64,000 nucleotides of DNA from a virus (Duplodnaviria; Heunggongvirae; Uroviricota; Caudoviricetes). The stretch is from IMG/VR virus record IMGVR_UViG_3300049044_000033, positions 158,796 through 222,795 of that record; one strand, written 5' to 3'. The position numbers were made by a program. Of this stretch, positions 15,001-18,000 are shown piece by piece; positions within the stretch are counted from its first letter, which is position 1; the number at the start of each line of letters is the position of its first letter.

Positions 15001-18000
15001 CGGTTGCTTTCCATCGCGATCCGGTCAGCTTCGGCAACAGCGCGCTTTTCAGCCGGCGTCAATTCCCGAGTCATTGCGTTATCGTATTCGTTGATTTCGG
15101 TCACACTCATGCGCGACATAACATCAGCGCGAGCCACTTCCATACGAGCAATCTCTGAGCTCTCAGGATTGTAGGATCGGAGACCAGCAAGGCGACCATC
15201 GATGCGACGAAGATAGTTCTGGTTTTTCGTAAACGACTTGGACATATGTTCTCCTGTGGTTGGTTAACCTTAGGTAGAGCATAACTGTTGCCTTTGCAAC
15301 CGAAAAACACCCTCTAGAAAGTGATTTTGAGCAATTTTCCCTATAAGTATGTGGCAACGCAACAAAGTGAGGTCGCTATGTTTACTTTTCAGATGTTTGT
15401 ATTTTTCTACGTCACTGCATCGATGGCAATGAGCGCTGCTCTGAGCAAGCACTATCCGGGTATCGCAGGTTGGGGAAATTTCTCGAGGGGCGTTGCTTGG
15501 CCCGTAACCCTGTACGAGATTCTCAAGGGCTCGATTGAGGAATAAGCGGGAAGCAGTGGAATTGAACCACTCGCCTGTAGGGGTTAGAGGCGCTCGTAGC
15601 TAGAGCTAGACTAGGACCATCCTAGATTACTTCCCAGGTATATTGCGGTTATAGAACGTTCTTAGGAGATCGTTCGACATCTTGGCATAATAAGAGCGAG
15701 GATACTTGACCGCAATATTATTCAGCTGATTTGAGATCAGCTCAGCATCCTTATCGGAAATCTTACGATCGTTGATCCACGTAGCACCATTATGGTTACG
15801 TAGATAATAGTTCTTATCCAATTCCCAGAGACGCATAATATCCTCCAATGTATAGGGATATTTAGCTTTCTGGGCGATACACTACTTTCCAACCTATGAG
15901 CTCTTTCTTTAGCTTGGCTGCTAAGTTGGCTCCACATTTGTTGAATGCCTTGAGGTCAAAAGACCTAGTTCGTTCATGCGGGGAAAGATAGAATTGGCTT
16001 TTTTCATACCAATCAGTCCAACGCACGATAGCATCGTAGAGCTTGCTAGAGATTGGTAGTTCGTCAAGATCCATATTCGAGCCACTCTCATTCCAAACAC
16101 CGCTGCTGGAATAGTCGGCCATTAGTTTAACGAACATGAGCTTCCTTGGTTTTTGAGGGCAAGTTGTTGTGCTGGCTTTTCTTCCGCTGCGTCTGCCAAT
16201 TCCGCCACCTCGCCCATATGTTTGCTAGTGGGGAGGGAAGGGCTCGAACCTTCATGACCTAAGTCCGCGGTTTTACAACGATAACCCAGAACTTCGGCCC
16301 TCAAAATAGATCTATTAGTTCGACGGGCAAGTGTTGCGTAGGACTTTTACAGCGTCCTGGACCACTAGACGACCTCCGCATAGATTGGCGCGGAGACTGG
16401 GATTCGAACCCAGGTTTCAGCCTTGACATGGATAACCCTATGCTATCGGCCCGTCGAACTAAAAACGTGTTAGCGCCTAATTGCCTGTGTGTCAAGCAAC
16501 TTTGGCTAAACTTTTTTCAGGGATACCATAAAGAATGTTGCCCTTAGGGTAGAAAGTCTTACCCTCTGATTCTACACTCTCAGTGATCTCAATATCCCAA
16601 TGCGTGTAGTCGTCAGTATAGTGACGCTGGTCAAGCACCTTGGCTTTACCTAGGCCAAACTTCGTAAGGAAGACGACTTCTTGATTTTTCGTAAACATAC
16701 CGAGATACTAAGATTATTGTGCCAGTATGTCAAGTGCTCCGAGGTGGATTCGAACCACCAAAAGCCGCTTTAGGAGAGCAGCACCCGTCCATCGGCCGGA
16801 GCATAAGTAGAATATGTTTAGATATCTAGAACCAGGTGAAAAAGGAGATTATTGGGGAACCTCGAGCCTCCTTGAGTGGATGACAAAGCTTCTTAAAGGC
16901 CATGTTGTTCCGGAGGATGCAACCATCCAGCATATTGAATTCTTTCTCCAAGAATATTATGCAGATGCAAAGAAGGCAGGGCCATATGCCCTTATTACAT
17001 TCTATCCGTCAGCTATCCGCTACCTAGGACCTGAAGGTCAGGATGGAACCACGTTTGACGGACACCGAATTAATATCAATTACGATGCTAATCGGGTAAT
17101 TCAAAGTATCAGTTTAGGATAATTGTTCTAGAAGATGAACCCCAAGACCAGTTTCCGCACCTGGTTCCTTTCATCCCACTCCGTCTTCCGTAGACGGCGG
17201 GCTCGCCCAACAGAACTCAAAGATACTCAATCGGGGCGAAGGTACTAGCAACCTAGCCTTATCTCTTCTTTCTCTAGGAGCCCTCAAGGGGTTCAGTGCT
17301 CGCTGGAAGAATCGAACTTCCGTCTGCTGTGTACGAAACAGCCATCTTACCACTAAACGAAGCGAGCATGTAGTGGAGTGTTGGTGCCGGCACAGGGAAT
17401 CGAACCCTGGATTGATGCTTACAAGGCAACTGTTATACCATTTAACTATGCCGGCATGTGAGTGATCCAACGTCTCGAGAGCACAGTCCCTAAGGGACTT
17501 CGTTGGATCACTATGTAGTCTGTGGTTAGACCAGTGACCGTGCCCCACAGCGTCTTCCCAGGAACGATAACCTCGTAAAGTCCCAAGGAACTACTGCCAG
17601 CGGCGGATTGCCTAACCCTCCCGAATAAATCCGAAAGGACCGACTAAAACAAGAAGGAAGCAGTTTATCACCGCTAACACCTCTTGTTCGATCTAATCTT
17701 AACACCAGTACATCCGTGGTGTCAAGACTAAAGTTGGACTTTAGGCAGTACATCCGTGCCTAAAGTCCAAAGAGCTCCCGGAGGGATTCGAACCCTCTCT
17801 CGGACGTTCGAAGCGTCTGGTCATAATCCATATGCGGGAGCATGAGCTTCATTGAAGTTTATTAGCCATAGGTCATCTTAAATGCCATGGCATGTTTCTT
17901 CTCATAAAACCAAATCTCACGCGATCCAGTTTCGTAGTCGAGAATTTTGTGGGTAGGTATCGTACCGGTCATCCGCATGAACCATTCCGCAACCTCAGGC

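What the first reader, a model, noticed from the sequence alone, without database searches (positions are those of the whole stretch)
16317..16460. The clamp motif: candidate new small splicing/ligating ribozyme or enzyme-recognition site (10 copies)
Consensus from 10 copies. Leader: [outer stem]GRGC-CG-AW-N3-5-[inner stem..GGG]-UUAUC, then cargo. Trailer: linker (usually A-rich), [YCC.. inner stem]-N4-7-ACUU-GCYC[outer stem]. Outer stems (6-12 bp) and inner stems change sequence but keep pairing, while the unpaired CG, UUAUC and ACUU stay almost invariant. G-U wobbles form on the minus strand (e.g. GAUGAGC/GCUCGUC at 25001-25095), which supports an RNA structure rather than a DNA cruciform. 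The tRNA 3' piece begins at or within 1 nt of the end of GGGUUAUC. I could not match the motif to BHB, group I/II ends, hammerhead, hairpin, twister, pistol or HDV consensus.
Basis: partly seen in the sequence, partly recalled or inferred. Interest (0 to 1): 0.93.

Follow-up and report, generated by a model that had tools for sequence, protein, structure and literature searches.

The report
Phage Y RNAs carrying permuted tRNAs
The ten "clamp" repeats are not a new ribozyme: they are the conserved stem of Y RNAs, small RNAs that dock onto the ring protein Ro60, which this giant phage also encodes, and most carry a complete tRNA look-alike with its halves in swapped order.

Summary
Observation confirmed. 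There are ten elements, all on the minus strand inside the tRNA array, with covarying outer and inner stems around invariant CG, GGGUUAUC and ACUU.

The interpretation (new splicing/ligating ribozyme) is not supported. The clamp is the Ro60-binding stem of Y RNAs:
- a lower helix with a bulged C, then G·U and A-U pairs (the GNCGAA motif);
- an upper stem;
- the UUAUC/YUAY motif shared with vertebrate Y RNAs, nematode sbRNAs and bacterial YrlA.

Supporting evidence:
- One copy passes Rfam's sbRNA threshold, and two give full-length YrlA matches below threshold.
- The 462-kb phage encodes a complete Ro60 (TROVE + Ro60-vWA).
- An eleventh copy lies about 1.2 kb upstream of that gene.
- In six unrelated phage contigs the same clamp sits directly upstream of the Ro60 gene.

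Seven cargos are full circularly permuted tRNAs, including the anticodon arm, which published YrlA lacks. However, the anticodon triplets differ between orthologues in related phages, two have the wrong body type for their anticodon, and canonical tRNAs with the same anticodons exist for at least six of the seven. I therefore read them as tRNA mimics, not tRNA precursors.

This scan has flagged similar phage Y-like RNAs on other DNA. Verdict: a new variant of a known kind, of moderate interest.

The parts
16315..16462 (-). Focal element: Y RNA with an Asp/Glu-type permuted tRNA head (148 nt)
16449..16462 (-). Outer (lower) stem, 5' strand, 14 nt, ending GGGC
   Evidence: pairs with 16315-16328
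16446..16448 (-). C-G-A: a bulged C, then G and A that pair with the UU of ACUU. This is the core of the GNCGAA Ro60 contact motif
   Evidence: PMC4201824; PMC4726728
16436..16445 (-). Inner (upper) stem, 5' strand, ending GGG
16431..16435 (-). UUAUC, the conserved Y RNA/sbRNA loop motif (YUAY of YrlA)
   Evidence: PMC4726728; PMC4201824
16389..16430 (-). tRNA 3' part: nt 31, anticodon loop AUGUCAA, 3' strand of the anticodon stem, variable loop, T arm, acceptor 3' strand and discriminator G
16380..16388 (-). Encoded CCA plus a 6-nt spacer that closes the acceptor stem; predicted RNase P / 3'-trimming site
   Evidence: inference from M. smegmatis YrlA (PMC4201824)
16349..16379 (-). tRNA 5' part: acceptor 5' strand, D arm, anticodon-stem nt 27-30
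16344..16348 (-). A-rich linker (AAAAG)
16336..16343 (-). Inner stem, 3' strand (UCCUACGC)
16329..16335 (-). AACACUU: the 3' side of the internal loop, plus the UU that pairs with the G-A of CGA
16315..16328 (-). Outer stem, 3' strand
13424..13563 (-). Y RNA with a permuted tRNA head; break inside the anticodon loop; joined form called Gly-ccc. Rfam sbRNA 39 bits, YrlA 31.9 bits
16151..16306 (-). Y RNA with a type II (long variable arm) Tyr-GUA-like permuted tRNA head
18615..18675 (-). Minimal Y RNA (61 nt, no tRNA part); sbRNA model 25.1 bits; own model 59 bits
23971..24039 (-). Minimal Y RNA (69 nt)
25001..25095 (-). Y RNA whose head is a hairpin plus a T-arm only (YrlB-like)
28173..28299 (-). 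Y RNA with a permuted tRNA head; the whole anticodon arm (loop CUUUGAA) follows UUAUC
29743..29879 (-). Y RNA with a Phe-GAA-like permuted tRNA head, break at nt 29/30; YrlA 39.3 bits, full length
31020..31171 (-). Y RNA with a permuted tRNA head (anticodon UAG on a short-variable-loop body), encoded CCA, 18-nt spacer
31552..31685 (-). Y RNA with a permuted tRNA head (anticodon UGA on a short-variable-loop body)

Best explanation
The elements are Y RNA genes, the partner RNAs of the phage's own Ro60 (Rsr-type) protein.

Shown from sequence:
- The 5' and 3' ends of each transcript pair into a lower helix closed by GRGC/GCYC.
- A bulged C follows, then a G·U and an A-U pair (CGA against ACUU), an asymmetric internal loop, an 8-9 bp upper stem ending GGG/YCC, and UUAUC. 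This is the Ro60 docking module.
- The 'cargo' is the effector module. In seven copies it is a complete, circularly permuted tRNA: T arm, 7-bp acceptor stem closed by a 5-21 nt spacer, D arm, and an intact 5-bp/7-nt anticodon arm. The Y stem leaves this tRNA at nt 26-34. In one copy the cargo is a hairpin plus a T-arm, and in two it is only a short loop.

Inferred:
- The RNAs are cut out of the polycistronic tRNA transcript by the enzymes that mature the flanking tRNAs.
- RNase P and 3' trimming/CCA addition open the acceptor spacer. Two copies encode CCA, and the phage has a CCA-adding-family enzyme. The result would be two-piece RNAs with a tRNA-like CCA end.
- Ro60 binds the stem, and the tRNA-shaped heads recruit or distract tRNA-handling proteins such as PNPase, modification enzymes, repair enzymes, or host anticodon nucleases.
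For: Motif identity:
- GRGCCGA(A/U) fits GNCGAAN0-1G, which resembles the GGUCCGA contacted by Xenopus Ro60. UUAU fits the conserved YUAY of YrlA (PMC4201824).
- The vertebrate Ro60 site is a helix with one bulged C and an opposite bulge, and UUAUC is conserved in sbRNAs and vertebrate Y RNAs (PMC4726728).

Rfam:
- sbRNA family RF01656 scores 39 bits (gathering score 38) at 13425-13563 and 25.1 bits at 18615-18676, aligning GGxCCGGA, UGGGUUAUC and ACCAACU(U/A)G.
- YrlA RF02553 aligns full length at 39.3 and 31.9 bits, with T arm, acceptor and D arm in the same order.

Partner protein:
- The genome encodes TROVE (152.8 bits) plus vWA_Ro60 (191.5 bits).
- An 11th clamp lies about 1.2 kb upstream of that gene on the same strand. 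A clamp motif (CCGATG[A/T]TGGTGGGTTATC) lies at the matching upstream position in three relatives; the full element was verified in one (G001).
- In six unrelated phage contigs the clamp lies about 0.1-1 kb upstream of the TROVE domain match (the ORF start lies about 130 nt nearer), same strand.
- 13 of 16 records carrying clamp-type elements encode TROVE, and the three without are 9-60% fragments. Only 357 of 50,697 GenBank phage records match this Ro60.

Structure:
- Covariation of the stems; folds with z-scores of -2.3 to -5.6.

Mimic rather than decoder:
- Orthologues change the anticodon triplet while keeping stems and loop size: GUC/GUC/AUC/UCU/CUC, UAG/UAG/UGG, UUG/UGA/GCA.

Processing:
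- Six copies are followed within 3-9 nt by a tRNA and four are preceded within 0-5 nt.
- The acceptor stems are 7 bp, the feature that made M. smegmatis YrlA an RNase P substrate (PMC4201824).
- A PolyA_pol/CCA-adding-family gene is present.
Against:
- The ten copies lie 117-137 kb from the Ro60 gene, whereas published YrlA genes lie within 4 kb.
- No copy reaches the YrlA gathering score (best 39.3 against 69). The Ro60-adjacent phage copies do not reach it either, so the model looks narrow.
- The metazoan Y_RNA model RF00019 did not hit the window copies; it gave only 31.7 bits on a relative.
- Published YrlA lacks an anticodon loop and a CCA end, so the complete tRNA heads here may signal an extra or different role.
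- In some copies the minimum-free-energy fold prefers a local hairpin (AUAG...UUAU) over the inner stem.
Confidence: 0.85

Rival explanations
1. They are genuine circularly permuted tRNA genes. The clamp would be a processing handle that is excised, the two ends in the anticodon stem would be ligated (for example by the phage's Rnl1-type ligase or a host RtcB), and RNase P/Z would open the acceptor spacer to give decoding tRNAs.
For: - Joining the halves at UUAUC| gives sequences that ARAGORN calls full tRNAs in 7 of 7 cases, with 5-bp anticodon stems (one mismatch in three of them) and 7-nt loops with U33 and a purine at 37.
- Two copies encode CCA.
- The phage encodes T4 Rnl1-type and Rnl2-type RNA ligases and a CCA-adding-family enzyme.
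Against: - Anticodon triplets differ among orthologues in closely related phages.
- The UAG and UGA copies have short variable loops, which is wrong for bacterial Leu/Ser identity.
- Six of the seven anticodons are already served by a canonical tRNA in the array; Gly-CCC is not listed, though Gly-UCC and Gly-GCC are.
- The heads are not close copies of those canonical tRNAs.
- Three window clamps and the Ro60-adjacent one carry no complete tRNA.
- There is no bulge-helix-bulge, no splicing endonuclease and no RtcB.
- The same clamp sits next to Ro60 genes elsewhere.
Confidence: 0.06
2. The clamp is a small self-cleaving and/or self-ligating ribozyme.
For: Invariant unpaired nucleotides lie between covarying helices, which is the general look of small ribozymes.
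Against: - Every invariant nucleotide is accounted for by the known Ro60/Y RNA consensus.
- No ribozyme family appears in Rfam even at E up to 10 on these stretches.
- Copies without tRNA cargo have nothing to splice.
- The identical motif in animals is a protein-binding site.
Confidence: 0.02
3. They are Y-type RNAs that act mainly without Ro60. For example, they could be stable decoys that soak up host anticodon nucleases or other tRNA-targeting defence proteins, with the stem serving only for stability.
For: - The anticodon arms are complete and presented intact.
- The triplets vary between related phages.
- The copies sit inside a 55-gene tRNA array of a phage that also carries tRNA-repair-type ligases.
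- The ten copies are far from the Ro60 gene.
Against: - The Ro60 docking nucleotides are the most conserved part of every copy, which pure stability would not require.
- The clamp co-occurs with Ro60 genes.
- Triplet variation is equally explained by lack of constraint.
Confidence: 0.1
4. They are a DNA-level repeat, such as a miniature mobile element, a recombination site or a replication cruciform.
For: Terminal inverted repeats and multiple copies.
Against: - All 11 copies are on the tRNA-coding strand.
- G·U pairs, including one conserved in 13 of 14 homologues, would be A·C mismatches on the other strand.
- The stems differ in sequence between copies while keeping pairing.
- There are no target-site duplications and no transposase association.
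Confidence: 0.01

Closest known systems
YrlA (Y RNA-like A; Rfam RF02553) of bacteria and mycobacteriophages, bound by Rsr/Ro60 (Chen et al. 2014, PMC4201824; structure in Wang et al. 2018, bioRxiv 10.1101/312249)
   Same: A 5'/3' stem with the GNCGAA motif, followed by YUAY. The effector domain is a tRNA mimic with the T arm 5' of the D arm and the acceptor stem closed by a loop. The genome encodes Ro60. Full-length alignment to the model.
   Different: - Scores are below Rfam's gathering threshold.
- The heads keep a complete anticodon stem-loop, and some keep an encoded CCA. Published YrlA 'lacks the anticodon loop' and 'lacks a free CCA end'.
- There are ten copies inside a tRNA array 117-137 kb from the Ro60 gene, rather than one or two within 4 kb.
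- The heads differ from each other (type I and type II bodies).
M. smegmatis YrlA/YrlB
   Same: A seven-bp acceptor stem. YrlA is cleaved there by RNase P and receives CCA, giving two base-paired halves. YrlB has only a T-arm, like 25001-25095.
   Different: Processing is shown experimentally there and only inferred here.
Vertebrate Y RNAs and nematode stem-bulge RNAs (Rfam RF00019, RF01656; PMC4726728)
   Same: A lower stem with a bulged C, an upper stem ending GGG, and then UUAUC. One window copy passes the RF01656 threshold.
   Different: The animal RNAs have no tRNA-like module and are Pol III transcripts with a U tail. sbRNAs were not found in Ro immunoprecipitates.
Thermus phage phiLo Ro60 with Yrl1/Yrl2 (PMC12135203)
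   Same: A phage-encoded Ro60 with phage-encoded Y-like RNAs recognised by a CGAA motif in a stem-bulge-stem. Binding and a ternary complex with host PNPase were shown.
   Different: phiLo has two RNAs directly upstream of the gene, and no complete tRNA heads are described.
Circularly permuted tRNA genes of Cyanidioschyzon merolae and other algae/archaea (cited in bioRxiv 10.1101/312249)
   Same: The 3' half precedes the 5' half, the acceptor is closed by a spacer, and the ends pair beyond the anticodon stem.
   Different: Those use a bulge-helix-bulge cut by the splicing endonuclease and yield decoding tRNAs. Here the junction is a Ro60-type stem, no such enzyme is encoded, and the anticodons drift.

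Membership tests
Y RNA (Ro60-binding ncRNA, broad sense) | The 5' and 3' ends pair into a long stem interrupted by an internal loop (lower and upper stems) | tested here: met
Y RNA (Ro60-binding ncRNA, broad sense) | A conserved Ro60 site: a helix with a bulged C and a GGUCCGA / GNCGAA-type 5' strand | tested here: met
   GRGC-C-G-A in 10/10, AW in 8/10; G·U and A-U with ACUU; definitions from PMC4201824 and PMC4726728
Y RNA (Ro60-binding ncRNA, broad sense) | The genome encodes a Ro60/Rsr orthologue | tested here: met
   TROVE 152.8 bits + vWA_Ro60 191.5 bits
Y RNA (Ro60-binding ncRNA, broad sense) | Physically bound by Ro60 | not testable with these tools
   Needs RIP or EMSA
YrlA (Rfam RF02553) | Reaches the family's gathering score (69 bits) | tested here: not met
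   Best 39.3 and 31.9 bits, full-length. Ro60-adjacent phage copies also reach only 42.6 and 43 bits
YrlA (Rfam RF02553) | A tRNA-like domain ordered T arm, closed acceptor stem, D arm | tested here: met
   Seven of ten copies
YrlA (Rfam RF02553) | Encoded within about 4 kb of the Ro60 gene, on the same strand | tested here: not met
   The ten window copies are 117-137 kb away, on the same strand. The feature is met by the 11th copy and by homologues in six other phages
Circularly permuted tRNA genes (algal/archaeal type) | A bulge-helix-bulge at the junction, and a splicing endonuclease | tested here: not met
   The junction is UUAUC / A-rich linker on an 8-9 bp stem; PF01974 is absent
Circularly permuted tRNA genes (algal/archaeal type) | The product is a decoding tRNA with a conserved anticodon and matching identity elements | tested here: not met
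   Anticodons differ among orthologues; Leu/Ser anticodons sit on type I bodies
Small self-cleaving ribozymes (hammerhead, twister, pistol, hatchet, HDV, hairpin) | A match to a family model | tested here: not met
   No such family at E up to 10

The most novel reading that the evidence does not exclude
This phage clade has turned the Y RNA into a battery of Ro60-tethered, full-length tRNA replicas. They would be opened by RNase P, end in CCA, and might be chargeable. Their freely changing anticodon arms would act as baits or decoys for host tRNA-targeting defence nucleases, or would recruit the phage's tRNA-repair enzymes (Rnl1-type ligase, CCA-adding enzyme) to Ro60. In the extreme version, some would be excised and ligated into working tRNAs, the first permuted-tRNA pathway outside eukaryotes and archaea.
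Probability: 0.2. Interest if true: 0.8.

Novelty: new variant of a known kind. Interest (0 to 1): 0.5.

Why it matters
- What the tRNA-like head of bacterial Y RNAs does is still an open question.
- This phage clade offers eleven diversified Y RNAs, seven of them with complete tRNA heads, beside its own Ro60, a CCA-adding-family enzyme and RNA ligases.
- The clade includes cultured members: Sinorhizobium phage Phosso and Agrobacterium phage Atu_ph07, both on tractable hosts.
- The heads retain the anticodon arm and CCA that YrlA has lost. They therefore look like intermediates between tRNAs and Y RNAs, and bear on the proposed origin of Y RNAs from tRNA transcripts.
- Practical points: these genes are unannotated in the Phosso GenBank stretch examined; they escape Rfam thresholds; they cause spurious tRNA calls.

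Tried and rejected
- Rotating and joining the halves at every possible cut and calling tRNAs gave many conflicting anticodons and was uninformative. It was replaced by an explicit parse.
- The collection scan with a 14-base pattern returned mostly chance hits. Only about 21-25 of 128 had stem closure, so the raw hit count is not used.
- MAFFT alignments misplace the inner-stem 3' strand by one register. Inner-stem covariation was therefore measured by cognate versus non-cognate duplex energies.
- Model R1, built from short copies, finds the short and some long copies but loses others because of the large insert.
- The metazoan Y_RNA model gave no hit on the window copies.
- The promoter/terminator scan was uninformative.
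- A phylogenetic-profile test failed for lack of contrast. Of the seven related records found via the tail-tube gene, six encode Ro60 and the seventh is a 4.9-kb fragment.
- The heads are not near-copies of the canonical tRNAs with the same anticodon, so recent duplication from the array is rejected.
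Full report
**Context.** The window is G000:C1:158796-222795 of a complete 462,455-bp phage record with terminal repeats. It holds about 55 tRNA genes, all on the minus strand, and a GOLLD RNA. The closest cultured relatives by Ro60 protein are Sinorhizobium phage Phosso (469 kb, 51.9% identity) and Agrobacterium phage Atu_ph07 (490 kb, 45.4%).

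**Observation.**
- GGGTTATC occurs ten times, always on the minus strand, against 1.76 expected.
- Each hit lies in an element whose ends pair over 6-14 bp. The coordinates are listed under parts.
The outer stem closes with GRGC/GCYC, followed by an invariant CG, usually AW, an inner stem ending GGG, then UUAUC. On the 3' side come an A-rich linker, YCC..., a few nucleotides, ACUU, and the outer stem.
- A relaxed scan of the whole genome finds exactly these ten, against 0-2 in shuffled genomes.
- The stems covary. In 14 short homologues from 11 phage records (including this genome), 98.2% of cells pair, six pairs show compensatory double changes, 0 of 500 shuffles reach the observed pairing percentage or covariation score (2 reach the count of double-change pairs), and slid partners pair at only 40-54%.
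- Within the window each leader prefers its own trailer.
- G·U pairs make the structure specific to the minus-strand transcript.

**What it is.** The clamp is the stem of a Y RNA.
- The vertebrate Ro60 site is a helix with a single bulged cytidine and an opposite bulge. A UUAUC motif at the start of the loop is conserved in nematode sbRNAs and vertebrate Y RNAs (PMC4726728).
- Bacterial and phage YrlA RNAs share GNCGAAN0-1G, which resembles the GGUCCGA contacted by Xenopus Ro60, and a conserved YUAY (PMC4201824).
- The window copies read GRGC-C-G-A-(A/U)...GGG-UUAUC, with CGA facing ACUU: a bulged C, then G·U and A-U pairs.
- Rfam agrees as far as its models reach:
  - The sbRNA family RF01656 scores 39 bits (threshold 38) on 13425-13563 and 25.1 bits on 18615-18676, aligning all the conserved blocks.
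  - YrlA aligns end to end at 39.3 and 31.9 bits, with T arm, acceptor and D arm in register.
  - These scores are below YrlA's threshold of 69. Copies lying directly beside Ro60 genes in other phages also reach only 42.6 and 43 bits, so the model is narrow.

**The partner.**
- The phage encodes a full Ro60: TROVE 152.8 bits and Ro60-type vWA 191.5 bits.
- That note did not report a Y RNA partner. I found one. An eleventh, weaker-stemmed clamp lies at about G000:310340-310540, about 1.2 kb upstream of the gene on the same strand. Three relatives carry the clamp motif at the matching place; the full element was verified in G001.
- In six unrelated, smaller phage contigs the same clamp lies about 0.1-1 kb upstream of the TROVE domain match (the ORF start lies about 130 nt nearer), on the same strand. 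This is the arrangement by which YrlA was defined.
- Of 16 records with clamp-type elements, 13 encode TROVE. The three that do not are fragments estimated at 9-60% complete.
- Only 357 of 50,697 GenBank phage records match this Ro60.

**The cargo.**
- In seven copies the cargo is a whole tRNA in swapped order:
  - the 3' part: rest of the anticodon arm, variable region, T arm, acceptor 3' strand;
  - a 5-21 nt spacer, starting with CCA in two copies;
  - the 5' part: acceptor 5' strand, D arm, start of the anticodon stem.
- The 3' part begins 0-1 nt after UUAUC.
- The break falls at nt 26/27, 27/28, 28/29, 29/30, 30/31 (twice) or inside the anticodon loop.
- Joined in silico, all seven are called tRNAs: Gly-ccc, Tyr-gta, Asp-gtc, Gln-ttg, Phe-gaa, Leu-tag, Ser-tga.
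- One copy carries a hairpin plus a T-arm, and two carry only a short loop.
- Published YrlA has this topology but 'lacks the anticodon loop' and 'lacks a free CCA end' (bioRxiv 10.1101/312249). The complete heads here are the unusual feature.

**Mimic or precursor?** The evidence favours mimic.
- Orthologous copies in related phages keep the stems (with compensatory changes) and the loop size, but change the triplet: GUC, GUC, AUC, UCU, CUC in one group; UAG, UAG, UGG in another; UUG, UGA, GCA in a third.
- The UAG and UGA copies have short variable loops.
- Six of the seven anticodons are already covered by canonical tRNAs in the array; Gly-CCC is not.
- The heads are not close copies of the canonical tRNAs.
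- The phage lacks RtcB and a splicing endonuclease.
- It does encode Rnl1- and Rnl2-type ligases and a CCA-adding-family enzyme, so a processing route is not excluded. I give it about 6%.

**Likely mechanism.** This part is inferred.
- Six copies are followed within 3-9 nt by a tRNA and four are preceded within 0-5 nt by one. tRNA maturation should therefore release them.
- The 7-bp acceptor stems are the feature that made M. smegmatis YrlA an RNase P substrate that then receives CCA (PMC4201824). The heads are therefore probably opened to two-piece RNAs with a CCA end.
- Ro60 should bind the stem. The heads would then tether or distract tRNA-binding proteins, by analogy with Ro60-Y RNA-PNPase complexes, which have also been shown for a phage Ro60 (PMC12135203).

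**Distribution.**
- Relatives carry similar sets: ten verified in a 465-kb record, five to seven in others.
- Phosso has at least three verified copies, in a stretch where its GenBank record annotates none, plus two further CM matches near 420.4-420.7 kb.
- Atu_ph07 has an AT-richer version.
- This scan has flagged similar phage Y-like RNAs with permuted tRNA heads on other DNA. Those notes agree with my reading but are not independent evidence.

**Verdict.** The ribozyme idea is rejected. The elements are Y RNAs for the phage's Ro60, in an expanded and unusually tRNA-complete form.

Noticed in passing
outside the window: G000:C1:310340-310540 (-): An eleventh clamp element with a roughly 135-nt head that is not tRNA-like, about 1.2 kb upstream of the Ro60 gene. 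It is 80.7% identical to the element at the same place in a 465-kb relative.
   Followed up: partly
window 31612-31688 (-), 28237-28291 (-), 29810-29876 (-): Spurious tRNA calls (ARAGORN Ser-tga; Rfam tRNA 30.8 bits, model positions 9-63). They arise because the Y leader (outer stem, CG, AUAG...GGG-UUAU-C) imitates an acceptor strand plus D arm in front of the tRNA 3' part. This fits the proposed origin of YrlA from dimeric tRNA transcripts.
   Followed up: partly
window 4703-5152 (-): GOLLD RNA, 171.1 bits, full length.
   Followed up: no
window 30306-30359 (-): Rfam bacterial LSU rRNA positions 1095-1146 (23.3 bits, E 0.001), a free-standing fragment inside the tRNA array.
   Followed up: no
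window 27034-27107 (-): A tRNA with anticodon CUA (labelled Pyl by ARAGORN), i.e. an amber-suppressor-type tRNA in the array.
   Followed up: no
window 19908-20420 (-), 22544-22951 (-), 24365-25009 (-): Genes scattered in the tRNA array: a cytidine/tRNA-type deaminase fold, an ART-PolyVal ADP-ribosyltransferase, and a DUF559 endonuclease whose reading frame runs into the 3' end of the Y RNA at 25001-25095.
   Followed up: no
G000:C1:246524-246889 (-), 329034-329519 (+), 400394-400948 (-): Elsewhere the phage encodes a CCA-adding/poly(A) polymerase family enzyme, an Rnl2-type RNA ligase and a T4 Rnl1-type RNA ligase. It has no RtcB.
   Followed up: partly
L139:5723-5966 (-) (465-kb relative): The orthologue of 16151-16306 carries an insertion of roughly 100 nt in the spacer that closes the acceptor stem (244 nt in all), directly after an encoded CCA.
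   Followed up: no
L131:1087-1209 (+), L132:2156-2279 and 2283-2407 (-): In small phages, just upstream of the Ro60 gene, Rfam calls 'tRNAs' of 123-125 nt, i.e. tRNA models spanning an insert of about 50 nt. These may be another kind of tRNA/Y hybrid.
   Followed up: no
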